This document shows positions 12,373-61,420 of a DNA stretch of 64,000 nucleotides, piece by piece. The stretch is from Trypanosoma brucei (taxonomy: Eukaryota), in contig CP000068.1 of the NCBI GenBank assembly GCA_000002445.1, positions 160,001 through 224,000 of the forward strand. Reading direction: 5' to 3'. The first letter of the stretch is position 1, and every line of letters starts with the position of its first letter. The notes under the pieces are model-generated. The model saw nothing but the letters and a program-made list of their open reading frames with translations. It did not search any database and was not told where the DNA came from. The translations under genes were made by a program, and so were the position numbers.

Positions 12373-12914
12373 TATAATAATATAGTGTAGCTACTGACGT
12401 ACCTGCCTCTTTTCGCTAGTTTTCCTCCAGGGGCACTGACACAGTATTAAAGAAGAAAGCAGCTACAAACAGAACGCTCAGATCGATGTCGTTTCCAACT
12501 CCTACCAGCCTTCTTCGAACCTCCTTTCCCGTACCTGTCTAGAGTGTTAACGGAACCTTCTCCACCCACGTCACCCAATACTAAATAAAAGCAACTCTGT
12601 CTGTGTATCACCTGTTCTCTACCCTTTATTTGCGTATTCCTTCCCTTTAACAGCAACACAAGCGAACAAGTCAAGCGATGGGGGGAAAAAGCAACAATAA
12701 CAACAATAAGCGAAAGTAGGAAAGCAAATGCATAAGTGCGTGCGCCCGTTGCTTCGTTATGAGAGGTATGTCATTTGTCGCTGTTGTGACGGTGGTGATT
12801 AAATAAAGAGCTCCCTTACCGGGCGAATTTAAATACGAACGCGTTAAGGTGTGTGCACACACTCTCGCAAGCCGCACCCGCACAAGAACAGTGCACGTTT
12901 AATTAAGCAAGCAT

Positions 12915-14432
12915 TTACCATTTATTCCCCGCACCCGTTCCCCACGCCTCCTCCCAGCACTTGGGCCTCCATCGCGTTGAGACGGGTGGAGGCTGAAATG
13001 GCTCCCGGGCGCCGTCCTTGTCAATGGGATTGCGACCTTCCCTAATGTCACCTAAGTCCGTCAAACCCAACTCCTTCCGAATCGCCAGCCGCTCGTCTTC
13101 TAACTGATCAGCCTCAATTCGGAGCCGCTCCAGCTCCGGAGTGGTGAGGTCCGGAACGGCATCATGGTATGGAATACCCAGGTCTGTCCTCTCCCAGTAG
13201 TGAGCAAATGGCTCACCATCTGGGTCATTTGGATCATCTGACGTGGGCTTGCGTACAGGGTGCTGCTTCTTATTCATCCGCACTTGACGTTTGTACTCAA
13301 GCTCTTGCCACGCCATGTTACGGAAAACGTGGCCCAACTCAGTCCGCATCACTTCAACTTCCTCTTCATTGTAAAAAAGATCCCCACGAACAAAGCCAAG
13401 GGTCCACGTAGCACCGCTCTTCGCCTTTTGAGTGTACTCGGTTTGTGGGTTGTGCTCAGTTTGTCGCAATGGTTTCGTGGCCCTGTGGGCATCCCCGTAA
13501 ACCTGATCATCATCAAGCTCCTGAAAGGTTTGTTGCGAGCGGTTCATGTGGGCCATTATGCGCATGAGTGCGTCTTCCACCTCCTCATCATCTAAGATCA
13601 TGGGACCGAAGTACGACTTCTTGTAGCTGCGACTATGCTCCTCCTCTGCCACACTGGGTGGGTCTCCGCGGTGACCGCGCATCCACCGCTCCCATAACCT
13701 ATCGTCTGTGGCCAGTGTCCCATACGGGAGGTGCTTCTTGTTGCTATCTTTGCGATACATGCGACGCTGTTCCTCCCGCCCCTTTTGGAACTGCCATGTG
13801 ACGGTAAACTTATTACCAAATCGGTCCTTCGCGATGAGGCGTTCCTGCGTGAAAAAGAAGCGGATGTAATTCCAGTAGAGCAGCTCCCACCACATAATGA
13901 TGCGGTTGTCAGCTAGCCCCGAAAAGGAATGCTGTAACTTTACACTTTTGTCACCAAATGCGTCAACAGAACGAGTATATGGCACACTAGTGTCCGACTC
14001 TTCACGGATGCGCTGCCGCGCAGCAGCGGCAACCTCAGGGCCGGAAGTTTGCTCCAACTCCGTTGTGTATGCCTCCAGCTTGCGCTCCTCCCGCTGCTGC
14101 AACGCTTCCTCCTCCAACTGACGCTTGGCTTTGGCGGCTAATAGCTCCTTCTCCTTAATTGCCCACGCTACTGCGTCCTCCTGCCTGCGTTGAGCATAAA
14201 CCAGCTTTGATGTGATATCACTTGTCTCGTCTGCCATGCCTCGGATATTCGAAAGAACGGTTGCTATTGTCAAGCGGTGCCTGCGGCTGACACAGTAGCA
14301 ACCACTCAAAGGCAGCGCAGGATGGCTTACAGCCGTCAACTCTGACGGATGCACAGTGGTCGCCCACACCAATGGGGATAGATGATATTTCCTCATTTGT
14401 GGCCGTTGCGCGTGCTTCTCACTCACCCCCAA
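12915..14432 (-). CDS. Hypothetical charged protein, 505 aa as ORF; an internal ATG at 14237 (MADETSDITSKLVYAQ…) is an alternative start
   Basis: Long minus-strand ORF with coding-like composition and E/K/R-rich coiled regions; no family recognised. Confidence 0.55.
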   Translation of the reverse strand: MGVSEKHAQRPQMRKYHLSPLVWATTVHPSELTAVSHPALPLSGCYCVSRRHRLTIATVLSNIRGMADETSDITSKLVYAQRRQEDAVAWAIKEKELLAAKAKRQLEEEALQQREERKLEAYTTELEQTSGPEVAAAARQRIREESDTSVPYTRSVDAFGDKSVKLQHSFSGLADNRIIMWWELLYWNYIRFFFTQERLIAKDRFGNKFTVTWQFQKGREEQRRMYRKDSNKKHLPYGTLATDDRLWERWMRGHRGDPPSVAEEEHSRSYKKSYFGPMILDDEEVEDALMRIMAHMNRSQQTFQELDDDQVYGDAHRATKPLRQTEHNPQTEYTQKAKSGATWTLGFVRGDLFYNEEEVEVMRTELGHVFRNMAWQELEYKRQVRMNKKQHPVRKPTSDDPNDPDGEPFAHYWERTDLGIPYHDAVPDLTTPELERLRIEADQLEDERLAIRKELGLTDLGDIREGRNPIDKDGAREPFQPPPVSTRWRPKCWEEAWGTGAGNKW

Positions 14433-37900: not shown

Positions 37901-37978
37901 AAAAAATTAAGAATTGAACAAAACACAATAAACAAACACAAAACATGCTGAAACCAGCGACAAATGGGTATGATTGTG

Positions 37979-39813
37979 CAACACTGTTTTTGCATAATCA
38001 TACGCATGAATGCGTATTTGACGTGAAAATACGCAATAATGCACAATTTGTGAACAAACATGCAACATTGTGCAGGTTGTGCAAGAATGCGTGTTTTACA
38101 CCAAAAACACCTTACATGTTGCATTGCAACACTGTTTTTGCACAATCATACGCATGAATGCGTATTTGACGTGAAAATACGCAATAATGCACAATTTGTG
38201 AACAAACATGCAACATTGTGCAGGTTGTGCAAGAATGCGTGTTTTACACCAAAAACACCTTACATGTTGCATTGCAACACTGTTTTTGCACAATCATACG
38301 CATGAATGCGTATTTGACGTGAAAATACGCAATAATGCACAATTTGTGAACAAACATGCAACATTGTGCAGGTTGTGCAAGAATGCGTGTTTTACACCAA
38401 AAACACCTTACATGTTGCATTGCAACACTGTTTTTGCACAATCATACGCATGAATGCGTATTTGACGTGAAAATACGCAATAATGCACAATTTGTGAACA
38501 AACATGCAACATTGTGCAGGTTGTGCAAGAATGCGTGTTTTACACCAAAAACACCTTACATGTTGCATTGCAACACTGTTTTTGCACAATCATACGCATG
38601 AATGCGTATTTGACGTGAAAATACGCAATAATGCACAATTTGTGAACAAACATGCAACATTGTGCAGGTTGTGCAAGAATGCGTGTTTTACACCAAAAAC
38701 ACCTTACATGTTGCATTGCAACACTGTTTTTGCACAATCATACGCATGAATGCGTATTTGACGTGAAAATACGCAATAATGCACAATTTGTGAACAAACA
38801 TGCAACATTGTGCAGGTTGTGCAAGAATGCGTGTTTTACACCAAAAACACCTTACATGTTGCATTGTAACACTGTTTTTGCACAATCATACGCATGAATG
38901 CGTATTTGACGTGAAAATACGCAATAATGCACAATTTGTGAACAAACATGCAACATTGTGCAGGTTGTGCAAGAATGCGTGTTTTACACCAAAAACACCT
39001 TACATGTTGCATTGCAACACTGTTTTTGCACAATCATACGCATGAATGCGTATTTGACGTGAAAATACGCAATAATGCACAATTTGTGAACAAACATGCA
39101 ACATTGTGCAGGTTGTGCAAGAATGCGTGTTTTACACCAAAAACACCTTACATGTTGCATTGCAACACTGTTTTTGCACAATCATACGCATGAATGCGTA
39201 TTTGACGTGAAAATACGCAATAATGCACAATTTGTGAACAAACATGCAACATTGTGCAGGTTGTGCAAGAATGCGTGTTTTACACCAAAAACACCTTACA
39301 TGTTGCATTGCAACACTGTTTTTGCACAATCATACGCATGAATGCGTATTTGACGTGAAAATACGCAATAATGCACAATTTGTGAACAAACATGCAACAT
39401 TGTGCAGGTTGTGCAAGAATGCGTGTTTTACACCAAAAACACCTTACATGTTGCATTGTAACACTGTTTTTGCACAATCATACGCATGAATGCGTATTTG
39501 ACGTGAAAATACGCAATAATGCACAATTTGTGAACAAACATGCAACATTGTGCAGGTTGTGCAAGAATGCGTGTTTTACACCAAAAACACCTTACATGTT
39601 GCATTGTAACACTGTTTTTGCACAATCATACGCATGAATGCGTATTTGACGTGAAAATACGCAATAATGCACAATTTGTGAACAAACATGCAACATTGTG
39701 CAGGTTGTGCAAGAATGCGTGTTTTACACCAAAAACACCTTACATGTTGCATTGTAACACTGTTTTTGCACAATCATACGCATGAATGCGTATTTGACGT
39801 GAAAATACGCAAT
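37979..39813. repeat. Tandem satellite array, 148-bp unit × ~12.4 copies, 62% AT, nearly identical units with a few recurrent SNPs
   Basis: Exact periodicity of 148 bp seen directly (caacactgtttttgca at 37979, 38127, 38275 …). The six-frame track shows the same 81-aa and 65-aa ORFs repeating every 148 nt on both strands. Unit GC counted by hand is 56/148. Confidence 0.95.
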
Positions 39814-42800
39814 AGTTTGCATTTTATGCTTTAATGTTTATGTTGCTCATGCTTTTTTTCAATTTGCATATTTTGCGTGAGAAGGGTTGTTGTAATTAGA
39901 CTTGTTTTCACCTGATCGATGTATTAATGGATATGAAATGGGAAAGGTGTCATGATGTGCTGCCGTGTAAGTGTGAAAATTAATTTTTTTAGTTTTTTTG
40001 TTTGCCGTGTTCTAAAGCAGTGTGTTGTTGTTTCTTTTTGATGCTGTCTTTATTTTTTTGTAGCGATTTTAGCGAAGCGGATGGAAATGTTGAGTTTGTG
40101 ACATTCTTTTTTTTTTTTAGTGTGTCCTGTTTTCGCGAGAGCAAATGTTTAGGAATACCGAATTTGTTGTATTGTTTTCTGTTTTGCTGTTAATGGCGAG
40201 GGGTCTTTCATGGAAAGTGTTTTCGAGACCCACAAGGGTTTATATTGCTTTACAAAGTGTACCGGAATTGCTTGGTGCCACGAAAGGGGGACGTGATTGT
40301 AAGCGAAATAATGTGCCACGTAGTTGCACGGAATAACGTGATGGTAGGAAAAATCTGCGAAGAGGGGGGTCATACGAGGAGCTGCGTACGGAAGGCGATT
40401 GGGACCTGTCGCAACAATTTCACTACTTAAAGGCCAGTCTTTTTATGTTGCCATTTACTGCCGGCTTGGGCGCCGTGAGAGCGGGGGGGGCAGGGGACGT
40501 TTAGCGGCAGATGAATGGTTCGAAAAGGCATAATTTGCTCAATTTCCATCAAAGCAGCGAAAAGTGAAACATATTCGATAAAGCCAGTCTGCGCCACTCA
40601 CCAATGACAATGCCAATTTTTGTTTTTAATGTGCCGTTTCGTCGATCACATGACCGGGCACCGCCACTTTATGGAGATCCTGTTGGGATATATATATAAA
40701 TATATTGTGCGTCCTTTCGAGCTGTTGGCGACATTTTCTCATGCTCTAGGTATTAAGTTCCTGTGAGTGACGCTGCATACCTGCTTGCAGCTCGTTGTTC
40801 TTTTATTAAGCGTTAGCGCTGAAACGGGCCTCGCACAGTGTTGTTATTGTGGTTTGAGGCGCCAACGAATAACTGCAGAGCCGTTGTCTTTCGCAATCCT
40901 GCATGAAGAAAGCCTCCCGCGAACAAAACGCAGCTGTTCCAAAGAGGCCGTATGATGCGGTTTTACCTCATGTACAACCTGACGGAACGTTGGGAACGCC
41001 TTCGGCCATTGTGAACAAATCGCAAAACCACGTCAAGGCAACCACCTGTCCTTACCAGTGTGCGTGAGGTTGCCATAATTTGCATCATAAATTGCTCCCC
41101 GTAGATGCCGATGGATCTTTGCGGTTGCTTCATCCATGCAGTGACTCGCATGTGAAATGCATGACCATCCTATTGTTTGGTTGCAGAACACAGGCTGGAG
41201 TGCTAAACGCATCCTTCCCAAGCCTCGACGCGTCGTCCGCCGCAACAGAAACGGTATCCACGGCTTCAACACTTTTCCGCAACCGCCCGCGTCCTGAACC
41301 GCCAGTGTGCTCCTCTTGCCCGACCTCCCTTTTCTTTTTTTAAAAGTTTCATCGCGTCCGATTAACTGCTGCTCTCCGTTCTTACGCTTCGTGGTGGTCT
41401 CTTAGTTCTCAACCCATCTCACTTTCCGCGCAGTATAGGACTGTGGCACCGCGCAATCAACTGATACGCATATTTGAACAGGCTTTGCAGTAGCTTTAGC
41501 TTCATCCAATGCCAAGCCGTCAGTATTTTCCCTATTCCCCTTCTTTCCAGCGATGGTGGCTGGAAACTCAGTTATATGAATGTGTTCTTAACCGCGGAAG
41601 CGAAAAGAAGCAACCTTCAAAAACTTTCCTCCCTTTAAATGTTTCATTCCGCAGCCAAACCTTTGTTAGTGAGGGCATTCGTCTTGTTTCCTTCCTGACT
41701 TAATGCATATCCAACTTAGCTTCGTCACTGGCATTCTCTGCACTCCTGCATGTTCCACCCTCATTTTTTTTTCTTCTTCCAAACCCATCACTATTTATCC
41801 GTTTCATGACACACACGCATATATGTATTGTCCATGCGCCATTTGGTCGTCGTCTCCGCATTCCTTCGGCAAACGTTTACTTTCATTATCTTTTAAGAAT
41901 TTCCTTTTGAATAATTAAATGTGTATAAGTAAAAAACTTGACGGAAGAGATAAGGGAGTGAGATGAGGTGCAATGACGCCAATCAGTTGTTACCTCCCAC
42001 CCCCAACGCACGGCCACGCGCATGCGGTGCGTTTGGAGCAGGTGTGAAGCAAAAGACAAAAGGAAAGTTATAATTTAGCAATTTCTGCCCACTGATCGCG
42101 TGCGAACGCACTGTATTAACCTTAAACCCGTGTGGTTGGCGGGAAAGATTATCTTTGACGCGTGATGGAAAGGGGGGGGGGGGAGCGGCGCGGGCGGGCA
42201 CCACATACATCTCTGTGTGTTGTCGTCTTTTTTCTTCAAATACTGCTTTTCTTTTCTTTTCTTTTCATTCCTTTTTAAAACCCGCAGCTCACAACGAACT
42301 AATTTCGCAAACTAAATACACCCCGTGAATTTCCCCCCTTGCTCCTTGCGCGTTGAGAGGGGTACTTCCGTTATTTCCCTCATGGCCGTTTCTTTTTTTT
42401 TTCCCCTTAAACTTCTTTTCCCCTTTTAATTCATTAAGAAAGAGGAATCAAAACGCACACCCGCAATTCTCGCTCGTTTTTTTTTTGCGGCCATAAGGGC
42501 GGTTTTTTTTTCAAATTTATTTATTTAAAAATAAATAAATATATATATATAGATAGAACGCTGAACGTGTAGGACTGTTTCCCCCCTTTCCCACCTCACC
42601 ACCATTAACTCGCTTTTTTCCTTTTTTTCGTAATACATGTCATCTTATTCCCTCAACTTTCCTTTCCATCATGTCATGGGTTTTAAAATAAAGGGAAGCA
42701 CAAACAGACAAACTCAGCACCACTGGAACATCCCTGATATACCAAAAGCAAAAGAAAAAACTTGTATAGATACGTTGGAATATGAGTTTTGTGCTGATGA

Positions 42801-43428: not shown

Positions 43429-44715
43429 CTAAAGAATATTACCTTCTAAGACGTCAGATCCCAACTCCTCCTCCTTCCCTTTCTTTTCCACCTGTCCTTC
43501 CACCTCATCCCTTTTTTTCATGTGCCACCTGAGGAGGAGAAACAAAAGTATCAGCAAAACGAGCGGGACAACAATCGCAACGACCAAAACGGCTACGCTA
43601 ATTCCCAATGGCGCAGTATCACGTGCCTTCTGGATAAGTTCTTCCTCTTCCTCAGTATTGTTGGGAAGTATAATTTCACGGGAAATATCAACATCATGTT
43701 TTCCATTTTCCCCCAAGACAGTGGTGCGTTCCAATTTGTCCTTCCGTTGCTTAACGAATTCGGTTACGTTTCGAAGAATTGATTTTGGCGTCTCCTCATC
43801 AGTTTCAAGCAAGGTGTAGATTTTGTAAAGCACCACCAACTTTGTCTCGGCGACGTACACGGCGCGTTGTGCCTTCCTCAACTCCGTCACAATCGCATGA
43901 GTTTTGGTCATTGCCCTTTTGTAATCGCCTAACCATCCTTCCCAAGCGGTACAGATATCCGGGCCGCTGTACTTGCTCTTATCTTCACATGGCGGCTTAC
44001 CACTCTTTGCTTTTGGCTTATGTTTATCCCATTTATCCAACGCGAGCTTCATCTTCGTCCCAGTCACGTTTTGGTAAGGCGTACTCTTTCTCAAACCATC
44101 GCAGTGAATGACATTCCTCGCACCATCGGAGTAATCTCTGCGCCGCCCGATAACATAACAATTGTGGCTATAAGGTGATAACTTCAGCCCTCGCTTAATA
44201 TCTCCACCGCAATGCCAGTTCAGAACCTTTAAGAGACCTGTGGCTTTATTATGGTCCTCAATTTCGTCTTCACCCAACGCCTGTGCCGCCGCTCCCTTCG
44301 CTCCATCGATTGATCCTTTAATCTTTTCAGCGACCTCTTGCGCTGTCGCCTCTCCTTGGTCAATGTCTTTCTGAGCTGCCTCGCACTGCTCGCGCAGCTT
44401 AGCCGCGACTGTGGCATACGAGTTGCTTTTTTCATCCAGTCGGGGTCCAATGTATTCAAGATAATAACTCACCCTCTTTTTATCATCAGCCAACAATGCG
44501 GCCAGCCGGTCAGACTCTTCTACAAAATAATCAGCCGATTCTCCAGAAACTTTGGTGGAATAATCCGTCATCGCGCATAGGGCTCTCCCGGCGGCCACGT
44601 CAAGTTTCCTTTCTGCTTTGTAATGCGATTTTCCATAGGATTCCTCATCAGCAAATCCACCTGAGCAACAGACAAGCAGCACGAAGCCGAGCCCAAGCAC
44701 AATAGTACGCGACAT
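43429..44715 (-). CDS. Type-I membrane surface glycoprotein, invariant-surface-glycoprotein (ISG65-like) family paralog A (428 aa)
   Basis: N-terminal signal peptide (MSRTIVLGLGFVLLVCCSG), Cys-containing ectodomain with motifs shared with the two paralogs (…NWHCGGD…, …CTAWEGW…), several N-glycosylation sequons, a single C-terminal TM (ISVAVLVVAIVVPLVLLILLFLLL) and a short Lys-rich cytoplasmic tail. This architecture and size are typical of T. brucei ISG65-type proteins, not GPI-anchored VSGs. Family assignment is from architecture, not alignment. Confidence 0.7.
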   Translation of the reverse strand: MSRTIVLGLGFVLLVCCSGGFADEESYGKSHYKAERKLDVAAGRALCAMTDYSTKVSGESADYFVEESDRLAALLADDKKRVSYYLEYIGPRLDEKSNSYATVAAKLREQCEAAQKDIDQGEATAQEVAEKIKGSIDGAKGAAAQALGEDEIEDHNKATGLLKVLNWHCGGDIKRGLKLSPYSHNCYVIGRRRDYSDGARNVIHCDGLRKSTPYQNVTGTKMKLALDKWDKHKPKAKSGKPPCEDKSKYSGPDICTAWEGWLGDYKRAMTKTHAIVTELRKAQRAVYVAETKLVVLYKIYTLLETDEETPKSILRNVTEFVKQRKDKLERTTVLGENGKHDVDISREIILPNNTEEEEELIQKARDTAPLGISVAVLVVAIVVPLVLLILLFLLLRWHMKKRDEVEGQVEKKGKEEELGSDVLEGNIL

Positions 44716-44920
44716 TTTCGTTTATAGTAACGTTGATGGTACCCAGAAAGTTAGTGCCAAAGCTCTGGTCAGCCGAAAAGCAAAAAATAAAAGATAAAAA
44801 AGGGTAAAACGGAGGAAATCGAAGGGAACAAATACAACACATCACTTGGTTAAAGTTGGGGGGCACCACACACCACCTCACGAAATGACTTAACGCTTGG
44901 CACAAAACCCACCTTTGCTT
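44660..44920. repeat. ~255-bp block (5' UTR plus first ~50 nt of CDS of ISG-like paralog A) duplicated identically at 50325-50585 upstream of paralog C
   Basis: Direct comparison: …ttcgtttatagtaacgttgatggtacccagaaagttagtgccaaagctctggtcagccgaaaagcaaaaaataaaagataaaaaagggtaaaacggagg…cacctttgct is identical at both sites and diverges immediately outside. This explains the duplicated spurious ORFs 44648-44995 and 50271-50570. Confidence 0.9.
44771..44837 (-). promoter_or_regulatory. Polypyrimidine tract (minus strand) upstream of ISG-like paralog A; candidate spliced-leader acceptor region (duplicated upstream of paralog C at ~50436-50502)
   Basis: Plus strand gccgaaaagcaaaaaataaaagataaaaaagggtaaaacggaggaaatcgaagggaacaaatacaac is purine-rich, hence pyrimidine-rich on the coding strand, about 60-120 nt upstream of the ATG. 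Confidence 0.45.
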
Positions 44921-46604
44921 CCATTTAAGGGGGGGGGATTGAAAAAACTTACCGTAAACGCCGTTGAATGATGCCACAAACGGAAGCTTCATCACTGATG
45001 ACGCGACTGCATATCCTCTTTATTCATTTTTAGACGTTGCGAGACAAGTTTCCCATTTCAACGACTTCCCACTGGCCGCATTTCCCAACACACACACATA
45101 CAGAAAACTTACGCAAGATATCGCGAAGAGAGGCGCCTGCAATCACACAAACATTTCAATTCACCTCATCAACCATACAGTGAGCGGAATTACCATCGGG
45201 GAACCTTTCGTTGGTTTAAAGATATGACACCGCCTTTTCACTGGGTTACTTCCACAACTACCTACACCAAGAGCATGCGCACAAATGTTTGTATGTTTTA
45301 ACCTTCCTTAATTCGCTTTTGTACGAGACATTTTCATGTCCTCACTTAAAGCTATTTTCTTCCACAAAAAATATATGCATCATATATGTATTTCTTTTCT
45401 TCAGGACAGGGAAACTTTTAAATATATAAATGAAGTAACGTGTGAACGGCAGGCAAACACACAAAAGAGGTGACGGGAAGGGGGAATCCACTTCCTATTA
45501 CCACAATCTCGACCACAAAAATCTCTGAAGCGAATGAGGGAGGAAGGAAACTTAATGCCACGGCCATGTACATAAAATTTACCATACGATTCAAGTGCTC
45601 AAATATTAAGATTTCCCCCTTCTTTATATTTTTTGTTTTATTTTTTTTCCCTTCCTTTCTTGTCTTTAATGCACTCACCTTTCTTATACTCTACCACCCT
45701 CTGCCGCCACCAGGCATTTGGTGACCAAACCAATGAACGGTTACATTCGGTGTAGCCGATCCGCTTTTGAGTTTCATAAGAGATTAGAGAATGGCCAGTT
45801 GCAGCACAGGATGAGGTTGTTAAAATATTAACCGAAGTCGCTCTCTGCAATGCATGAGCGGACAAAACCAGAGCCAAACCAAAACGAAAAAGAAAAAAAA
45901 AGGGGCGAAGTCGGAAGCGTATGGGACCGAAATAATCAACCAGACACATCACAACAACTCTCCAACCCCTCCGAAAATAATGGGTAGGAAAAAATGAGAC
46001 TAGTTAATTTATTATTATTATTTTTTAATTTTTGAGGAAAGAGAAGGAAAAAAACAAGAAGTTGTGGTGTTGACATTACTGTCTACACTCATAACGGTAT
46101 ATGTGCAAATAGAAATGATCGGAAAATTTCCGAACTTGTGTCTTATTTTTTTTGTCATTTCAATGGTTTCCCTAAAATTTCCCGCACCTATTTATTACTT
46201 AGCTTTACCCTTCATTACACCTTTTGCTCTCCTAGCTATTTTGAACTCCCTCTCCCGCTTAAGTCACCTCTTTTCTTTCTTTCAAAAATACGATTGAACT
46301 ACTCTTCTAAAATACCAAAAGCATGTTACTTTAAAATTTTTCTCAAACGAATTATGGTTTCATTACATTCATCCCTTTAGAAAACAACAACACGTACACG
46401 CACATGTATGCTGCACGAAATGTATAAGACATGTGTTTATACCCTTTCCTCGATATGTTTCATCATGTGTGGCATTTTTTCGGCAGACGCGTATATAGAC
46501 TCATCCCCATGCTGTTTTTTTCCTCGAATTTCCGTGTGTTTTAAAGTGCAAAGCGCGGTCACGGAGGGGAGAAAACGATTGGTACGCACTTGAAAGCATG
46601 GCCT

Positions 46605-47870
46605 TCAGATTACCTTGTCTCCCGGTAGCGTTCCAGCCATGCTTTCTGCATTGCTGGCATCGGCACATTTGCGCTTTATCACTATTATCGTTACCGCCAC
46701 GACAAGGATCAGCACAGCTCCAACAGGGATGAATATATACATCATCAACTTAGCGAAGTTAGCGGCCGCAAAATAATCGCGCGCCTCGTCCACATGTTCG
46801 CGTTCCGTCTCATTTACCTGGAAGTCTTCATCAAGAAGCGTGTATTGTGTGAGGTTGTTGCCCACACTCTTATTCTTTAGACGCGATTTTTTCGTCTTAT
46901 TGATGTTTTCTAATACTTCCGGAAGGGGCCCCACAGTCTCGGGGTTCCGAAGTGCTTCGAAGAGTTCGTACAGCACCCATAGTTGTGTCTCCCCGTCGTA
47001 ACGAATTCTGTTGAGCTTCTTTATGTTGTTTCGAAGCTCTTCCATCTTTTCCATTGTCTCTTCGTAGCCGGTCACCCATCCTTCCCATACGGTGCAGGAG
47101 TGTGGAGAATGGTACTCACCATCTTTGCAGATATCCTCGCCCACCCTCTTTGGCCTTGCTTCAAACCACCTCGACAGGTAGCTCTCCATTTGTGTCACAG
47201 TGACATTTTCGTGAGGTATAGTCTCTCCATATTCATCTTTCCACTTTTTGCAGGATATGACATTCCTCTGACCCGCTGAGAAATTCTTTCGGAATCCAAT
47301 CACATCACAACTCTGACTTCCTGCGTGAACCTCCCCAATTCTGTCACCACCGCAGTGCCAGTTAAAAACTTTGAAGATACCATCGGCGTTGTCGTGGTCC
47401 TCAAGTTCGTTCTCATCACCGAGTGTCTTCGTTGCTGCATCCTTCACAATTCCAGACACCCTTCTGATCTTCGCCACTGTCTGATCTACTTGGTCTCTGC
47501 TCTTTTTATTTGCGTGCGCTTTGGCCTCTTTACACAAACTGTCGATCTCGTTACTGTCACTCTCATTTATCTTTGCATCCTCCCTTCCGCTTTCCTTAAG
47601 GCTCCGCACCCGCTTAACATAGTAATTGATGGCGTCCATGTCCGTCTTGAGGCTTTCCCCCATCTTTTGGACTTCTTCGACGAGGTAGTCCGTGGTTTCC
47701 TCGGAAATGTTGGTGAGCACATCCCGCAACTTGCACAAAGCTATGGCACCTTCTTTGTCAAGTTTCCGGTCCGCTTTGTATCTGTCAATTTTGTAACTCT
47801 CTTCGGAGGCGGAGGCCACTGCTGAGAAAACAAGTAATATATGACCAATGCAAAGGGCGTTGTATGACAT
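46605..47870 (-). CDS. ISG65-like family paralog B (421 aa), divergent from A and C
   Basis: Same architecture: signal peptide, …FNWHCGGDRIG…, …CTVWEGWVTGYEE…, TM (IFIPVGAVLILVVAVTIIVI) and KRK… tail. Roughly 25-35% identity to the neighbours by eye. Confidence 0.7.
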   Translation of the reverse strand: MSYNALCIGHILLVFSAVASASEESYKIDRYKADRKLDKEGAIALCKLRDVLTNISEETTDYLVEEVQKMGESLKTDMDAINYYVKRVRSLKESGREDAKINESDSNEIDSLCKEAKAHANKKSRDQVDQTVAKIRRVSGIVKDAATKTLGDENELEDHDNADGIFKVFNWHCGGDRIGEVHAGSQSCDVIGFRKNFSAGQRNVISCKKWKDEYGETIPHENVTVTQMESYLSRWFEARPKRVGEDICKDGEYHSPHSCTVWEGWVTGYEETMEKMEELRNNIKKLNRIRYDGETQLWVLYELFEALRNPETVGPLPEVLENINKTKKSRLKNKSVGNNLTQYTLLDEDFQVNETEREHVDEARDYFAAANFAKLMMYIFIPVGAVLILVVAVTIIVIKRKCADASNAESMAGTLPGDKVI

Positions 47871-49174
47871 AGTGGCTTATATATCAACGCCAAGGGATAC
47901 TTCCTTTTTTGTTGAGGCGTTTACTATTAGAGCTTTGACCGACCAGACTAGTAAGGGGAACGGAGATTGGGGAGACGGAACGAACGATGATTTTATAGCA
48001 GGAACCAACAACATGATAGTTGGGGGGTGAAGATGCAACGAGACGCACAAATTTCAACCATCACCGAGGGGGAATATTCCCCCGCTCTGTCCGTAACTTT
48101 AACAAAATGTGAGGGGCCGACTCAGCGTTTTTACCACTGTCTTCCTCTCAGGTTATACCCATACACATTATGAAAAGCATCAACATGCAACGGAATATAC
48201 ATCACCTCTAATGACGTTTGCTGAACAATGGGAGGATGTGAATATTCATACATGTGTGCTGCGCCCCCAGCTGCGAAACAGACCACTTTTGTGTTCATTT
48301 TCCGATGAGTGTTGAGTCGTCTGCCTCTAATCTGTTGTCAGTTTCCGTACCGAAAAAAAGGTGTAACATAACGACATTTATGCCAGAAGCTAGAGGCTAA
48401 GCATAAAAAAGATGGAGGAGAAAAGGGTGTTGCGAAGAAATATTGCCTCCACAGCATGTCATAAGGAAAGAGGTGACGAGAGTAGGCGGGATGTAGCGGC
48501 GAGGCGCTTCCACATCCAGAGCTTGTTGCAGCTCGGTCGAATGAATCAGATCACTAGCAATTTTTTTTCTAGACAAAGACGAAGCTTCCTTTCGCAGAGC
48601 ACCGTGATTTAATTCTGAAAGGAATTTCCAGAAGAAACCGAAGGATAAAAAATATTCCTCCCCTCCGCTTTTAGATGGAAGCGCAGCTCCCGTTCTCTGT
48701 AGATCAGCAAGCAAAAATATTACCTTTATGTGGCCTCCCACTGGCCACTTGAATAAAGGTATACGTATAATGATGGTAGGCGCTGTTCAAAAAAAAAAAA
48801 AGCAAAACAAAAACAACACATAGAAAGGTAACGAAAAAGCAAAAAAAAAAAGCAGAAAACGAGACGGAAATGCGAACTTAAGCGTGAATAGTGTGCCTTC
48901 CGAATACAGACTGCCCTCCTTCAATGAGAGGCAGCTGCACCAAAGTCTTTTTGCCCGTCGTTGCCAATAAGTAAGCAATAGTATTGTAACATTGTCCGAT
49001 ACACACAAAAAACAACCCTCCTCCTCTCGCTTATATAGATTATTCATTCTTTCACGCATTCTTTCTGGTTTTTCTGGATTCTTTTGGCTTCACTCACGTA
49101 CTTCGCACGAGGCGGAAGGTCCCCTACATTAATTTTAATTCAACTTCCACCTATGTTTTGTCTCAACCATCCGT

Positions 49175-50380
49175 TTAAAACGGGTCGATGTTTGTCGACG
49201 GCATTCCCTTGCCTTGGTGAACGCTACCGGAGGCCACATCTTCCTTCCTATCCTTTTTGCGGGCTCGGAAAATACAGAACAGTACCACCCCGATCAACAC
49301 AACAAGAAGAGGGATACCAACGTACATCAGCAACTCGGGTATCGTCAACGGAAATATAAAATGATCTCGTGCCCCGCTGAGCAAGTCATCATTGCTAAGG
49401 CACCTGGAGCTGTTTTTGCCCTCTTCCGGACAGTCGGTATCATTTCCTTCCAGCCTCGATTTGGCCTCCTGCAGAGCTTCACCAGCTGTTTTGCCGTCCT
49501 TGAGCATTTTGTAGGCCAAATACACTGAGGTGAGCCTCTTTGCCCCTTCACGGGTCGCGTTTTCTATGTGATGTCCGTTCTCCTCGAGGGTACTTAAACT
49601 TACATTCAGTTCTTCATAGTTTTCTTTCCATCCTTCCGACACGGTGCAGGGGCTCGAGCTGTTTTCGGCGGCGGCTCCACACTTCAAATTACCACCCGCT
49701 TTCTTCGGTTTCTTGCTCTCCCACTCATCAAATGCTTTGTGTAGACGTGCTGAAGGCGATCCGCGGTGATGGGTATTGTCTGTGCCGCAGGAAATTGTAT
49801 ACTTTCCACCGTCAGATTCGTTATTGTATACATCAGTGTCGCAGTGTTGACTCGGTGCTTTGTTCTTACCTTGACTTTCTCCACAGTGCCGGTGCAGAAC
49901 TCCGGAGAGTCCCTTGGAGTCGGTACCTTTCGCTTCTTCTCCCAATGTGGCCTTTGCCGCTTCCTTACTCTTTTTTGCGTCCTTTTCAATTTCGGTATAT
50001 AGCTCTTTGGCATCCCGTAAGTCATCCCTCGTTTCATTTTCCGCCTCTTCGCAAAACTCCTTAAGTTCTTTTTTAGCGTCGTCATCCGAATCTGGATCGC
50101 CACGGCCAGAAAGTGAGATCACCTGACTGCCAAAATATCCTACCCGCTTCCGGTAGTCCTTGAGATGCGTCACATTGTCTTCAGCCTTCTTGACGAGGTT
50201 GTCTGCTCCTTCTGTTCCAATCTTTTGTACGGTTTCTTTCAGTGCACACAACGCATTGGCGCCGTCTCGGCTAAGCTTTCCGTCTGCTACGTGTTGCGCA
50301 TCGCTGCTCGACTCCGCGAGTTTGCCAGAGTAACAGACAAGCAGCACGAAGCCGAGCCCAAGCACAATAGTACGCGACAT
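49175..50380 (-). CDS. ISG65-like family paralog C (401 aa); N-terminal 16 aa and 5' flank identical to paralog A
   Basis: MSRTIVLGLGFVLLVCYSG… signal peptide, …LHRHCGESQG…, …CTVSEGWKENYEE…, TM (LLMYVGIPLLVVLIGVVLFCIF) and RARKKDRKED… tail. Confidence 0.7.
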   Translation of the reverse strand: MSRTIVLGLGFVLLVCYSGKLAESSSDAQHVADGKLSRDGANALCALKETVQKIGTEGADNLVKKAEDNVTHLKDYRKRVGYFGSQVISLSGRGDPDSDDDAKKELKEFCEEAENETRDDLRDAKELYTEIEKDAKKSKEAAKATLGEEAKGTDSKGLSGVLHRHCGESQGKNKAPSQHCDTDVYNNESDGGKYTISCGTDNTHHRGSPSARLHKAFDEWESKKPKKAGGNLKCGAAAENSSSPCTVSEGWKENYEELNVSLSTLEENGHHIENATREGAKRLTSVYLAYKMLKDGKTAGEALQEAKSRLEGNDTDCPEEGKNSSRCLSNDDLLSGARDHFIFPLTIPELLMYVGIPLLVVLIGVVLFCIFRARKKDRKEDVASGSVHQGKGMPSTNIDPF

Positions 50381-50585
50381 TTTCGTTTATAGTAACGTTG
50401 ATGGTACCCAGAAAGTTAGTGCCAAAGCTCTGGTCAGCCGAAAAGCAAAAAATAAAAGATAAAAAAGGGTAAAACGGAGGAAATCGAAGGGAACAAATAC
50501 AACACATCACTTGGTTAAAGTTGGGGGGCACCACACACCACCTCACGAAATGACTTAACGCTTGGCACAAAACCCACCTTTGCTG
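50325..50585. repeat. Second copy of the duplicated ISG-like 5' UTR/signal-peptide block (see 44660-44920)
   Basis: Identical sequence to 44660-44920 read directly from the window. Confidence 0.9.
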
Positions 50586-58969: not shown

Positions 58970-61420
58970 ATGAAGCGCCTGCCTGTACGCCCCTGTTGCG
59001 TCACCGGGGAGGGTTCGTTTTCTGCACTAACATTTTCGTTTTCATTGTATGCATTACTTGTGCTTTTTGCTTTGTTGTACTGCTGTGACCTGGTGTCCTC
59101 CAAGATCTATGAGAGGACGACGCGTGAGGTGTTTCTGGAAGGTGGCCGGTGGGTGAGGAAGAGTGAATGGGAAAAGGGCAGTTGGAAAACCTCCCCCGAG
59201 TGGAACGCCGGCTATGAATGGTGGGCGTGGTGCATGGACTCGGTTGCTAAAGAAGCTAAGGGAGAAGTTTGCCGCAAGGAGTGGCTTTCTCAGAGGAAGA
59301 AAGGATACACGCTGGTGCCGAGGACGAAAGTTCCATTTAGGGAGAAAAATGGAACGCAGTGGATGCGCAACGTTCACTCTTTCCGTGTCCCTTCGTTTGT
59401 TGAAATTAGTGGGGTATTGGTGGGCATTGCCGACGTACGGTACATTTCATCTGCTGACTTCACCTTCACTGAGACAGTTGCCAAGTACAGTGCTGATGGT
59501 GGGGATACTTGGAAGACTAAAGTCATCATTGAGAACAGTCGTGTTAACACTAATTTTTCCCGAGTTGTAGATCCCACAGTCGCTGTCAAGGGAAACAATA
59601 TATTCGTTCTCGTGGGAAGGTACAACACTTCCAGTAAGTATTGGACGTGGCAACATTACGGCGAAGACTGGGATATACTCATGTACAAGGGTACTGTCAT
59701 CAAAGAGGAAAAGGACGGTAATGTAACTGCGAGCATTACATTTGAGGCTCCCCAGAACCTGAAGTTTCTCTTAGCAACGGTGCCCTCACCAGGTGGGCAC
59801 CCCCCATCCCAATTTCTCGGTGGCGTAGGGAACACTGCTGTAACGCCGGACGGTGCCATTGTATTTTCTGTCCAGGTCAAGAATACTTGGAATCAGGTTG
59901 TGGGAAAACTTTTGTATTCGACGGATGATGGCAAAACATGGCACTTTTCTGCAGGGGAAACACCGGTCGGTTCAACTGAATCTTCTGCCGTTTGGTGGAA
60001 AGATAAACTGCTGGTGAATGCCAGAACAGATGAGCATATAGGTTGCCGCAGGGTATTTGAAACGAGTGACTTAGGGAATACATTAAAGGAATCCATCAGG
60101 ACTCTTTCCCGAGTAATAGGCAACTCGCCGCTTCGTAACCAGCCTGGTAGTTCAGGAAGTGCTATTTCCATAACTGTGGAGGGCATGGATGTCATGCTAA
60201 TTTCTCAGCCAAAAAATACGAAGGGACGTTTCTCACGCGACCGCCTCCAGTTATGGTTAACGGACGGTACTCGTGTTTTCATGATCGGACAGATATCTCA
60301 AGGTGACGACAACAGTCCATACAGCTCCTTACTGTACACGAGCGATGGCAAACTTTACTGCTTATATGAACAGAACATTGAAGAGGTTTTCACTATTTAC
60401 CTTGCACGTCTTGTGGATGAGATGAAGATGATTAAATGGGTTGTGTTGTTATGGAAGGCACAGGATACTCTGTTGGTGGGTGACTGCCTTTCATCGGCTG
60501 GAGGAACAGGACCTTGTAGGGGGATACCAGTTGGTGGCCTTGCCGGGTTGCTTTCGGGACCCGCAGTTGGACATGTGTGGCCTGACGTGTACAAGTGCGT
60601 GTATGCTAGTGTCAGCGGTGCCGTGGCTAACAAAGATGGCGTGGTATTGGGCGGAACCGGTAAGGACCGTGTGGTGTGGCCGGTTGGTGAGCAAGGGCAA
60701 GACCAACGGTACTACTTTGCCAACACCCATTTCACAATTGTGGCGACGGTGCAGTTTGGTGTGGTGCCTCAAAGGGACACTCCATTAATTGGGTTTGTGA
60801 ATGGAGAAAAGAATGCTAATAAAACCTTAATGCTTTCGATCAAGAATAAGAAATGGTTTCTCACGTACGGGAGGATACGCAGCGAAGGTTCTCCGGTGCC
60901 GTCAAATTTGGAAGGGTCTCACCAGATTGCACTGACATTGCAAGATGGCTTGGTTACTGCATATGTTGATGGAAAACTAGCGGTTGCGGCGATTAATGTG
61001 AGAAAATTCGGTCGTGTCGGCTTTCTAAACATTAGGCGTTTTTTCGTTGGAACTCCAGTGTCTATTAGAACTTCAAGTCACACGACCGTAACCGTACACA
61101 ATGCACTCCTGTACAACCGAAGGTTGAGCGAAGGGGAACTACAGTTGGTGTTCACCAACAGAGAGGTGATTCGTGCAGCCAACCCGACGACGCCGCCTCC
61201 CACGCCTTTTGAGTCTAGTGCTGGGGGCGATGAGCAGTCACACGATAGGGCGGGTTCCACGTTTGGTGTTCCTTTTCTTTCAGGAGGTTCGATGTATTGT
61301 GAAGGGGACGCGTTGGAGCGTGTTTACATTTTATTTATTATTACTTTATGTGCACTGGCACTTTTTATGTTAGTGTTGGTCTTTCAAAAGCAGTGGGACG
61401 GGGATTCTACTATAATCTGA
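58970..61420 (+). CDS. Trans-sialidase/sialidase family protein (816 aa) with N-terminal signal/anchor, beta-propeller catalytic-type domain with Asp boxes, C-terminal lectin-like domain and hydrophobic C-terminus (GPI-signal-like)
   Basis: Asp-box motifs SxDxGxTW (SADGGDTW, STDDGKTW, plus degenerate TSDLGNTL and YTSDGKLY), a FRIP-like FRVPSF near the N-terminus of the catalytic domain, and overall length and order typical of trypanosome trans-sialidases. Hydrophobic C-terminal ~25 aa. Catalytic residues could not be verified without alignment. Confidence 0.8.
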   Translation: MKRLPVRPCCVTGEGSFSALTFSFSLYALLVLFALLYCCDLVSSKIYERTTREVFLEGGRWVRKSEWEKGSWKTSPEWNAGYEWWAWCMDSVAKEAKGEVCRKEWLSQRKKGYTLVPRTKVPFREKNGTQWMRNVHSFRVPSFVEISGVLVGIADVRYISSADFTFTETVAKYSADGGDTWKTKVIIENSRVNTNFSRVVDPTVAVKGNNIFVLVGRYNTSSKYWTWQHYGEDWDILMYKGTVIKEEKDGNVTASITFEAPQNLKFLLATVPSPGGHPPSQFLGGVGNTAVTPDGAIVFSVQVKNTWNQVVGKLLYSTDDGKTWHFSAGETPVGSTESSAVWWKDKLLVNARTDEHIGCRRVFETSDLGNTLKESIRTLSRVIGNSPLRNQPGSSGSAISITVEGMDVMLISQPKNTKGRFSRDRLQLWLTDGTRVFMIGQISQGDDNSPYSSLLYTSDGKLYCLYEQNIEEVFTIYLARLVDEMKMIKWVVLLWKAQDTLLVGDCLSSAGGTGPCRGIPVGGLAGLLSGPAVGHVWPDVYKCVYASVSGAVANKDGVVLGGTGKDRVVWPVGEQGQDQRYYFANTHFTIVATVQFGVVPQRDTPLIGFVNGEKNANKTLMLSIKNKKWFLTYGRIRSEGSPVPSNLEGSHQIALTLQDGLVTAYVDGKLAVAAINVRKFGRVGFLNIRRFFVGTPVSIRTSSHTTVTVHNALLYNRRLSEGELQLVFTNREVIRAANPTTPPPTPFESSAGGDEQSHDRAGSTFGVPFLSGGSMYCEGDALERVYILFIITLCALALFMLVLVFQKQWDGDSTII

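What the first reader, a model, noticed from the sequence alone, without database searches (positions are those of the whole stretch)
43429..50585. Tandem triplet of divergent ISG65-like surface protein genes with a gene-conversion/duplication mosaic at the 5' end
Three type-I membrane glycoprotein paralogs sit head-to-tail on the minus strand. A and C are only about 30% identical over most of their length, yet share an identical ~255-bp block covering the 5' UTR/poly-Y tract and the first 16 codons (MSRTIVLGLGFVLLVC). Identity stops sharply on both sides, and paralog B in between has an unrelated N-terminus and flank. A sharp-edged identical patch inside otherwise diverged paralogs is the signature of recent segmental gene conversion or promoter-proximal duplication, and would give A and C identical trans-splicing/UTR regulation while their ectodomains diverge. 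Established knowledge: ISG65 is an abundant bloodstream-form surface receptor (reported complement C3 binding) encoded by small tandem arrays. Diversified ectodomains with conserved Cys scaffolds (NWHCGGD, CTxWEGW) and Lys-rich tails (ubiquitin-dependent turnover) fit that family. Family membership here is inferred from architecture only.
Basis: partly seen in the sequence, partly recalled or inferred. Interest (0 to 1): 0.55.

Follow-up and report, generated by a model that had tools for sequence, protein, structure and literature searches.

The report
Gene-conversion patch between two ISG-like genes
Three old, very different copies of a known trypanosome surface-protein gene family sit in a row, and the first and third share a 253-base identical stretch at their starts because DNA was copied from one to the other; it is real, but an ordinary kind of event in already known genes.

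Summary
The window is Trypanosoma brucei TREU927 chromosome 5. The three minus-strand ORFs are Tb927.5.610 (A), Tb927.5.620 (B) and Tb927.5.630 (C). C is AcP115, published in 2000 as an "acidic ecto-phosphatase". All three match Pfam ISG65-75 (E 1e-88 to 1e-100). An AlphaFold model of A best matches solved ISG65 and ISG75 structures, and no phosphatase domain is detectable. The literature already calls them "ISG65-like" or "distant ISG paralogs".

A and C share an exact 253-nt block (44667-44919 = 50332-50584). It covers 155 nt of splice-acceptor region including the polypyrimidine tract, a predicted 49-nt 5'UTR, and 49 nt of coding sequence. Outside the block they are 28% identical in protein and 33% at third codon positions, and the longest other exact run is 10 nt.

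The block is present, with copy-specific SNPs, in three other assemblies, so it is not an artefact. A groups with B and a T. congolense protein rather than with C, so the block is a later non-allelic gene-conversion tract. Two polymorphisms shared across the paralogs suggest conversion has recurred.

Conversion tracts covering UTRs and start codons are already documented in T. brucei tandem arrays. This is a new example of a known kind, of low to moderate interest.

The parts
49175..50380 (-). Gene C = Tb927.5.630 = AcP115 (401 aa). It is an ISG65-75 superfamily type I membrane glycoprotein and the first gene after the divergent strand switch.
   Evidence: ORF. Pfam PF11727, E 4.6e-88. Exact match to XP_844737/AAZ11178, in one 90%-identity cluster with AAF44723 'acidic phosphatase'. 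Gene id and AcP115 identity from PMC4003530.
46605..47870 (-). Gene B = Tb927.5.620 (421 aa), an ISG65-75 superfamily member. It lacks the shared block.
   Evidence: ORF. PF11727, E 1.4e-100. Exact match to XP_844736 'invariant surface glycoprotein'. The gene number is inferred from its position between .610 and .630; it was not looked up. Its upstream region does not align with the block.
43429..44715 (-). Gene A = Tb927.5.610 (428 aa), an ISG65-75 superfamily member annotated 'acidic phosphatase, putative'. It is the last gene before the centromeric region.
   Evidence: ORF. PF11727, E 1.2e-96. PDB ISG65 hits at E about 1e-13. Exact match to XP_844735. Model and fold search. Obado 2007 Table 1 names Tb927.5.610 as the ORF flanking the centromeric repeats.
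44667..44919 (-). Copy of the 253-nt identical block at gene A: splice-acceptor region, predicted 5'UTR and codons 1-16.
50332..50584 (-). Copy of the 253-nt identical block at gene C.
   Evidence: The T. equiperdum OVI contig L009 starts exactly at its upstream edge.
44775..44830 (-). Polypyrimidine tract inside the block (A copy; the C copy is 50440-50495). It is followed by the first AG at 44766-44765, the predicted trans-splice acceptor, which gives a 5'UTR of about 49 nt.
   Evidence: Read from the sequence. The acceptor position is inferred from the general rule of the first AG downstream of the polyY tract. It has not been mapped experimentally here.
44826..44826 (-). Polymorphic site shared across the paralogs (partner site 50491). 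It is C in both copies in TREU927 and in the A copy of OVI, and G in both copies in T. b. gambiense and T. b. equiperdum IVM-t1.
   Evidence: Alignment A3, column 123.
44666..44666 (-). Codon-17 G/A polymorphism at the 3' edge of the block (partner site 50331). It segregates in both paralogs. A is TGC in 927/IVM/OVI and TAC in gambiense. C is TAC in 927/gambiense/IVM and TGC in OVI and in AAF44723.

Best explanation
The region is the known T. brucei chromosome 5 array Tb927.5.630 (AcP115), Tb927.5.620 and Tb927.5.610. These are three anciently diverged members of the ISG65-75 superfamily of three-helix-bundle type I surface glycoproteins. They appear to form a short minus-strand transcription unit between a divergent strand-switch region (about 54 kb) and the chromosome 5 centromeric repeats (38-39.8 kb).

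A 253-bp module was copied non-reciprocally between the non-adjacent genes C and A. This is non-allelic gene conversion or patch replacement, and the direction is unknown. The module holds the polypyrimidine tract and splice-acceptor region, the predicted 49-nt 5'UTR, and the first 16 codons of the signal peptide.

Once the patch existed, it was the only stretch of homology between the two genes. Later conversion events have therefore been confined to it and keep it homogeneous, while the ectodomains stay about 28% identical. The consequence, which is inferred, is that the A and C mRNAs carry the same trans-splicing signal, 5'UTR and signal-peptide start.

Shown: the patch, its edges, its presence in four assemblies, the discordance with the gene tree, and the shared polymorphisms.

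Inferred: the mechanism, the splice-site position, the transcription-unit layout, and any regulatory effect. The patch is most likely neutral or nearly so.
For: Identity of the genes and family:
- Exact protein matches to the TREU927 chromosome 5 products; gene ids from PMC4003530 and PMC1868937.
- PF11727 matches and sequence matches to PDB ISG65.
- The AlphaFold model (pLDDT 66.6, helical core 80-90) has as top Foldseek hits ISG65 8ovb_C (E 2e-7, TMt 0.71) and ISG75 8rd2, then mISP, HpHbR, FHR and GARP. No phosphatase appears.

The patch:
- 253 nt are exact, against 33% third-position identity and a longest exact run of 10 nt elsewhere.
- Self-blastn of 42-59 kb finds no other A/C similarity.

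Not an artefact:
- The same block with the same edges is in T. b. gambiense DAL972, T. b. equiperdum IVM-t1 and T. equiperdum OVI.
- In gambiense and IVM-t1 the two copies differ by copy-specific SNPs.

Not ancestral retention:
- In an NJ tree, A, B and T. congolense CCD14571 form a clade with 100% bootstrap, and C falls outside it.
- B lacks the block.

Recurrent conversion:
- Site 44826/50491 is C/C in one haplotype group and G/G in the other.
- The codon-17 G/A polymorphism segregates in both paralogs.

Precedent: Jackson 2007 (PMC1855330) documents conversion tracts that cover UTRs and span start codons in T. brucei tandem arrays, including one of 206 bp.
Against: - No donor or recipient direction could be established. 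The T. congolense and Tb927.5.310 N-termini are unrelated to either gene.
- The flanks have no detectable DNA homology. The founding event therefore cannot have been classical homology-driven conversion between sequences as they are now. It needs microhomology or template switching, or an older event when the flanks were more alike.
- Evidence for recurrence rests on only two sites in four or five strains. With regional 927-gambiense divergence of about 0.7%, zero differences in TREU927 has a probability of about 0.17 without further conversion (Poisson, 0.7% x 253 nt).
- The splice acceptor and 5'UTR are predicted, not mapped.
- The draft assemblies vary in quality. IVM-t1 shows homopolymer indels.
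Confidence: 0.8

Rival explanations
1. A single one-off copying event with no later conversion. A non-homologous or microhomology-mediated patch insertion or 5'-end duplication occurred once. The two sites that look shared between paralogs arose by parallel mutation or sequencing error.
For: Only two informative sites exist. Zero A/C differences in TREU927 are compatible with no further conversion at about 0.7% background divergence. In gambiense, A and C differ at 3/253, similar to the orthologous divergence.
Against: Two independent sites show the same base change in both copies, or the same polymorphism in both paralogs, within 257 nt that carry only about six variable sites in all. Parallel identical hits at two of so few sites are unlikely.
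Confidence: 0.12
2. The block is kept identical mainly by selection. It would be a functional 5' module (splice site, 5'UTR, signal peptide) that A and C must share, for example for co-regulation or co-translocation of partner proteins.
For: A and C show similar bloodstream-form up-regulation, 3.9-fold and 3.7-fold (Jensen 2009, PMC2771046). The block coincides with a natural RNA-processing and targeting module.
Against: Selection alone cannot hold 204 non-coding nt and all synonymous sites at 100% while third positions elsewhere are saturated. B works with an unrelated 5' region. The block has no unusual RNA structure, z = +2.0. Stage regulation in trypanosomes is generally 3'UTR-driven (established knowledge).
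Confidence: 0.05
3. Ancestral retention. The block is the last undiverged remnant of the original duplication, an 'island' that never diverged.
For: All three genes descend from one ancestor. B's upstream region keeps a faint CCCCCCAAC motif like the one in the block.
Against: A is closer to B and to a T. congolense protein than to C (100% bootstrap). The A/C split therefore predates that speciation, and a neutral 204-nt non-coding stretch cannot stay 100% identical for that long. B, the sister of A, lacks the block.
Confidence: 0.02
4. An assembly artefact: mis-joined or collapsed reads in the reference.
For: Short-read assemblies do break at this repeat. OVI contig L009 starts exactly at the block edge. 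In the Logan short-read assemblies only gene B was recovered as a complete gene.
Against: Both copies are present in four independently produced assemblies. In gambiense and IVM-t1 the A and C copies carry different SNPs, which a collapse or mis-join would not produce.
Confidence: 0.01

Closest known systems
Gene-conversion tracts in T. brucei tandem gene arrays (Jackson 2007, BMC Evol Biol 7:54, PMC1855330)
   Same: These are short non-reciprocal tracts between tandem paralogs that often cover UTRs and span the start codon, with CDS and UTR histories that disagree. Examples are a 206-bp tract in array Tb17 and an event spanning the start codon in Tb62.
   Different: Here the partners are non-adjacent and extremely diverged (28% aa, no flanking DNA homology), so the patch is an isolated island. 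The array Tb927.5.610-630 is not mentioned in that paper's main text.
ISG65 (Tb927.2.3270-3320), the complement C3 receptor; solved structures 7pi6, 7zgj, 8ovb
   Same: Same Pfam family (PF11727). Same predicted three-helix-bundle ectodomain, type I topology and Lys-containing tail. Up-regulated in bloodstream forms.
   Different: Only 20-25% identity, and a separate clade. C3 binding has not been tested. C is reported instead as an acid ecto-phosphatase and runs at about 110 kDa because of heavy N-glycosylation.
AcP115 acidic ecto-protein phosphatase (Bakalara et al. 2000, J Biol Chem 275:8863; AAF44723)
   Same: Gene C is this gene. It differs from AAF44723 at 16 of 401 residues and falls in the same 90% cluster. 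Tb927.5.630 is named AcP115 in PMC4003530.
   Different: No phosphatase domain or fold is detectable. Reviews note that it lacks homology to known phosphatases (PMC3095255). The shared 5' block with Tb927.5.610 is not mentioned in the papers I could read.
ISG75 array (Tb927.5.350-400) and ISG64 array (Tb927.5.1390-1430) on the same chromosome
   Same: Tandem arrays of ISG65-75 superfamily genes on chromosome 5.
   Different: The array-wide divergences tabulated by Jackson 2007 are Ds 0.15 for ISG65 and 1.19 for ISG75, the latter with one divergent terminal copy. By contrast, A, B and C are saturated at third codon positions. The block is absent from the sampled ISG75/Tb927.5.410-430 and Tb927.5.310 loci.

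Membership tests
ISG65-75 superfamily (Pfam PF11727) | Full-length match to the family HMM above the gathering score | tested here: met
   A scores 323.6 bits, B 336.6 and C 295.5, against a cut-off of 25.1. The matches cover profile positions 1-281.
ISG65-75 superfamily (Pfam PF11727) | Elongated three-helix-bundle ectodomain like the solved ISG65 and ISG75 structures | tested here: met
   The AlphaFold model of A has pLDDT 66.6 and pTM 0.62, with long helices at 80-90. Top PDB hits are ISG65 8ovb_C (E 2e-7, TMt 0.71), 7pi6 and ISG75 8rd2. The model is of moderate confidence and was built from only three sequences.
ISG65-75 superfamily (Pfam PF11727) | Type I topology: N-terminal signal peptide, one C-terminal transmembrane helix, and a short cytoplasmic tail with lysines | tested here: met
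   Read directly from the translations. The tails have 5 (A), 3 (B) and 4 (C) Lys. Zoltner 2015 lists a TM at 349-372 and 4 Lys for Tb927.5.630. No dedicated topology predictor was run.
ISG65-75 superfamily (Pfam PF11727) | Expression in bloodstream forms and surface or endosomal location | not testable with these tools
   Literature only. Tb927.5.610 is 3.9-fold and Tb927.5.630 3.7-fold up in bloodstream forms (PMC2771046). Tb927.5.630 is up in BSF (PMC2443814). It is reduced on TbVdu1 knockdown (PMC4619645).
ISG65 sensu stricto (complement C3 receptor) | Orthology or close paralogy to Tb927.2.3270-3320 | tested here: not met
   20-25% identity to ISG65/ISG64. ISG65 and ISG64 form their own 100%-bootstrap clade away from A, B and C.
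ISG65 sensu stricto (complement C3 receptor) | Binding of C3/C3b/C3d | not testable with these tools
   This needs a binding assay.
Acid phosphatases (the database annotation of A and C) | A recognisable phosphatase catalytic domain or fold | tested here: not met
   Pfam finds only PF11727. No phosphatase appears among the fold-search hits. A review states that it lacks homology to known phosphatases.
Acid phosphatases (the database annotation of A and C) | Phosphatase activity of the protein | not testable with these tools
   Reported for recombinant AcP115 by Bakalara 2000, as cited in PMC4003530. Never reported for A in the papers I read.
Non-allelic gene-conversion tract | A segment far more similar than its flanks, with abrupt boundaries | tested here: met
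   253/253 identical, against 44% nt and 33% third-position identity in the rest of the gene and 24% in the upstream flank.
Non-allelic gene-conversion tract | Phylogenetic discordance between the segment and the rest of the gene | tested here: met
   The rest of the gene gives (A,B,Tco CCD14571) at 100% bootstrap with C outside. The block groups A with C and excludes B.
Non-allelic gene-conversion tract | Reproducible in independent assemblies or strains | tested here: met
   TREU927, DAL972, IVM-t1 and OVI.
Non-allelic gene-conversion tract | Concerted evolution: polymorphisms shared between the two copies | tested here: met
   Two sites, 44826/50491 and 44666/50331. There are only two sites, so support is modest.
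Non-allelic gene-conversion tract | Identified donor and recipient | tested here: inconclusive
   No outgroup carries a related 5' end. The T. congolense locus is not syntenic.

The most novel reading that the evidence does not exclude
The patch may not be a neutral by-product. It could be a selectively maintained shared 5' module that gives AcP115 (C) and Tb927.5.610 (A) identical RNA processing, translation start and ER targeting because the two act together, for example as a heteromeric surface receptor. Meanwhile their ectodomains, C especially, diversify under host pressure. C differs from the AAF44723 AcP115 sequence at 16/401 aa, and T. equiperdum OVI carries a form that is 14-18% aa divergent. 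On this reading the 'acid phosphatase' label hides an uncharacterised ISG-type receptor pair.
Probability: 0.07. Interest if true: 0.5.

Novelty: new member of a known kind. Interest (0 to 1): 0.25.

Why it matters
It matters modestly, in four ways.

- **Evolution.** It is a clean natural example of a homology island. A 253-bp tract shared by paralogs that are otherwise saturated shows how conversion can persist in, and be confined to, a tiny patch.
- **Read mapping.** Short reads, SL-tags and 5' probes that fall in the first ~250 nt cannot tell Tb927.5.610 from Tb927.5.630. Short-read assemblies break at the block.
- **Genome stability.** Direct 253-bp repeats 5.7 kb apart could drive deletion or duplication of AcP115 and Tb927.5.620.
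- **Annotation.** The work underlines that the 'acidic phosphatase' annotation of two ISG-fold proteins rests on a single biochemical report.

None of this overturns current understanding.

Tried and rejected
- **Homologue search.** The search for homologous proteins with A returned only its own cluster, because the candidate cap was saturated by low-complexity words. I replaced it with a full HMMER scan of representatives.
- **Non-coding RNA.** The Rfam and tRNA scans of the whole window found nothing.
- **Centromere-flanking ORFs.** The ten longest ORFs in the ORF-poor 27-43 kb region have no Pfam hit.
- **Flank homology.** blastn (word size 9) of 42-59 kb against itself found nothing at the A/C flanks, so the conversion direction and the founding mechanism cannot be read from the flanks.
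- **Polarising the direction.** The N-termini of T. congolense CCD14571, Tb927.5.310 and Tb927.5.410 are unrelated to MSRTIVLGLGFVLLVC. The T. congolense locus is not syntenic; it sits among VSG and RHS genes.
- **Other TREU927 paralog loci.** Look-ups by exact protein were not on record. I used the gambiense and IVM-t1 orthologues instead. The block is absent at seven other chromosome 5 ISG-family genes.
- **Structured RNA in the block.** Rejected; z = +2.0.
- **More strains.** Lister 427, T. evansi and T. b. rhodesiense could not be reached with the tools. In the Logan short-read assemblies only gene B was recovered as a complete gene.
Full report
**What is there**

The window is Trypanosoma brucei brucei TREU927 chromosome 5. 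The three minus-strand ORFs at 43429-44715 (A, 428 aa), 46605-47870 (B, 421 aa) and 49175-50380 (C, 401 aa) are exact matches to XP_844735, XP_844736 and XP_844737 on a 1,608,198-bp contig.

C is Tb927.5.630, the AcP115 'acidic ecto-protein phosphatase' of Bakalara et al. 2000. The gene id and the ~110-kDa heavily N-glycosylated, bloodstream-specific protein are described in PMC4003530. A is Tb927.5.610. B lies between them, so it is Tb927.5.620 by position. In the databases A and C are annotated 'acidic phosphatase, putative', and B is annotated 'invariant surface glycoprotein'.

**The observation**

- A 260-nt direct repeat is found at 44660-44919 / 50325-50584 at 99% identity.
- Base-by-base comparison gives an exact run of 253 nt, 44667-44919 = 50332-50584.
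- Read on the minus strand, the block has three parts:
  - 155 nt of upstream sequence, including a 56-nt polypyrimidine tract (44830-44775) and the first downstream AG (44766-44765);
  - 49 nt up to the ATG;
  - 49 nt of CDS, which is 16 codons, MSRTIVLGLGFVLLVC.
- Beyond the block there is no similarity:
  - the upstream 250 nt are 24% identical;
  - the rest of the CDS is 43.9% identical in nucleotides, 33.2% at third positions and 28% in amino acids;
  - the longest other exact run is 10 nt.
- B has a different N-terminus and upstream flank.
- Self-blastn of 42-59 kb finds only the block and a 67-nt A/B stretch.
- The window holds no third copy of the block.

The only correction is that the motifs NWHCGGD and CTxWEGW are in A and B but not in C, which has HRHCGES and CTVSEGW.

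**Family**

- All three proteins match Pfam PF11727 (ISG65-75) over the whole profile, at E 1e-88 to 1e-100. No phosphatase family is hit.
- A matches solved ISG65 chains 8ovb, 7zgj and 7pi6 at E about 1e-13.
- An AlphaFold model of A, built on the A/B/C alignment, has pLDDT 66.6 and pTM 0.62, with long helices at 80-90.
- The best PDB matches of that model are ISG65 (8ovb_C, E 2e-7, TMt 0.71) and ISG75 (8rd2). Next come the other trypanosome three-helix-bundle surface proteins: mISP, HpHbR, factor H receptor and GARP.
- A full HMMER scan of 1.8 billion representative proteins finds only 26 relatives. The ten I looked up by name are all T. brucei-group or T. congolense proteins.
- In an NJ tree, A, B and T. 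congolense CCD14571 form a clade with 100% bootstrap. C lies outside it, weakly grouped with Tb927.5.310. ISG65 and ISG64 form a separate 100% clade.

The genes are therefore distant ISG65-75 superfamily members, not ISG65 itself. The literature already says so:
- 'ISG65-like' (Koumandou 2008, PMC2443814);
- 'acidic phosphatase (ISG65-like)' (Jensen 2009, PMC2771046);
- 'distant ISG paralog' (Zoltner 2015, PMC4619645).

**Is the block real?**

It is present with the same edges in three other assemblies:
- T. b. gambiense DAL972 (L001);
- T. b. equiperdum IVM-t1 (L010);
- T. equiperdum OVI (L009).

In gambiense and IVM-t1 the A and C copies differ from each other at two or three positions. An assembly collapse would not produce that.

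Short-read assemblies do break at the block. The OVI contig begins exactly at its upstream edge.

**What it is**

A is closer to B and to a T. congolense protein than to C. Third codon positions between A and C are saturated. Together these mean the 100% identical patch, most of it non-coding, cannot be an ancestral remnant or the product of purifying selection alone. It is a later non-reciprocal copy between two non-adjacent paralogs, that is, a non-allelic gene-conversion or patch-replacement tract.

It predates the separation of the sampled Trypanozoon haplotypes, because all of them share its edges. In gambiense the A and C copies differ at 3/253, while regional 927-gambiense divergence is about 0.7%.

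Two sites suggest that conversion has recurred since then:
- Position 44826/50491 is C in both copies in TREU927 and in the OVI A copy, but G in both copies in gambiense and IVM-t1.
- The G/A polymorphism in codon 17 (44666/50331), at the 3' edge, segregates in both paralogs.
  - A has TGC in 927, IVM and OVI, and TAC in gambiense.
  - C has TAC in 927, gambiense and IVM, and TGC in OVI and in the AcP115 sequence AAF44723.

As a result the identical run is 253 nt in TREU927 and 257 nt in OVI. This is modest evidence, since it rests on two sites. It fits a simple mechanism: the patch is the only homology between the genes, so later conversion is confined to it.

The founding event cannot have used flanking homology as the sequences now stand. 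Microhomology-mediated repair or template switching is the likeliest origin, but that is inference. Donor and recipient could not be determined.

**Consequence (inferred)**

Both mRNAs would use the same polypyrimidine tract and AG acceptor. They would carry the same ~49-nt 5'UTR and the same signal-peptide start.

The block has no unusual RNA structure (z = +2.0). It does not occur at seven other ISG-family genes on chromosome 5.

A and C show similar bloodstream-form up-regulation, 3.9-fold and 3.7-fold. Stage control in trypanosomes is usually 3'UTR-based, however, so I regard the patch as probably neutral.

Two practical effects follow:
- reads and probes in the first ~250 nt are ambiguous between A and C;
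- direct 253-bp repeats 5.7 kb apart are a substrate for deletion or duplication of C and B.

**Comparison with what is known**

Jackson 2007 (PMC1855330) showed three things about T. brucei tandem arrays:
- gene conversion in them frequently affects UTRs;
- tracts can span the start codon or be about 200 bp long;
- CDS and UTR phylogenies commonly disagree.

The present case is one more example of that kind. It is unusual only in how diverged the partners are. That paper's main text does not mention this array, and I found no paper describing the block.

The 'acidic phosphatase' annotation is not supported by any domain or fold evidence here. It rests on the biochemical report of Bakalara 2000, as cited.

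**Context**

- A 148-bp tandem array lies 3.6 kb downstream of A, at 37977-39814, with 12.4 copies at 99%. It is the chromosome 5 centromeric repeat that Obado 2007 placed between Tb927.5.600 and Tb927.5.610.
- Upstream of C there are no ORFs of 200 aa or more until a plus-strand trans-sialidase-family gene at 58970.
- The cumulative GC skew turns at about 54 kb.
- C, B and A therefore appear to form a short transcription unit between a divergent strand switch and the centromere. This is inferred.

**Verdict**

The genes and their family are already known. The conversion patch is a new instance of a documented phenomenon. Interest is low to moderate.

Noticed in passing
window 37977-39814 (ORF-poor region about 26.9-43.4 kb): A tandem array of 148-bp units, 12.4 copies at 99% identity. 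It matches the chromosome 5 centromeric AT-rich repeat that Obado 2007 placed between Tb927.5.600 and Tb927.5.610. The ISG-like triplet therefore lies 3.6 kb from the centromeric repeats. The ten longest ORFs in the surrounding ORF-poor region have no Pfam hit.
   Followed up: partly
L009 (T. equiperdum OVI) 602-894 and 1478-2150, corresponding to window 50156-49864 and 49842-49175: The OVI contig holds two forms of gene C, separated by N-gaps. One is like TREU927. The other is 9-12% divergent in nucleotides (14-18% in amino acids; 48 nonsynonymous and 35 synonymous codon differences). The divergence is confined to the CDS, and the downstream intergenic region is nearly identical. This is either a very divergent allele or an extra copy of AcP115.
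   Followed up: partly
window 49175-50380 (gene C) compared with A and B: C (AcP115) is much more polymorphic between strains than its neighbours. TREU927 and AAF44723 differ at 16/401 aa, whereas A and B differ at 2-3 aa between strains.
   Followed up: partly
window about 50.6-58.9 kb; ORF 58970-61420 (+): There are no ORFs of 200 aa or more upstream of gene C. The cumulative GC skew has its minimum near 54 kb. A plus-strand trans-sialidase-family gene (BNR_3 + TS_C) starts at 58970. This looks like a divergent strand-switch region, which would make C the first gene of its transcription unit.
   Followed up: partly
L010 (T. b. equiperdum IVM-t1) 7503-8736: The reading frame of gene C is broken into several ORFs in this assembly, and the C-run inside the block is 14 C rather than 6. 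These may be homopolymer indel errors or a genuine pseudogene.
   Followed up: no
L011 (T. congolense IL3000) 10001-13107: The closest T. congolense relative of A and B (CCD14571/CCD14572) is present as two identical tandem copies 1.84 kb apart. They are flanked by a VSG gene and RHS genes, so the locus is not syntenic with the T. brucei array.
   Followed up: no
window 43429-44715 and 49175-50380: The database annotation 'acidic phosphatase, putative' for A and C has no support from domain or fold comparison. Only ISG65-75 is detected. The label appears to be propagated from the single AcP115 biochemical report.
   Followed up: partly
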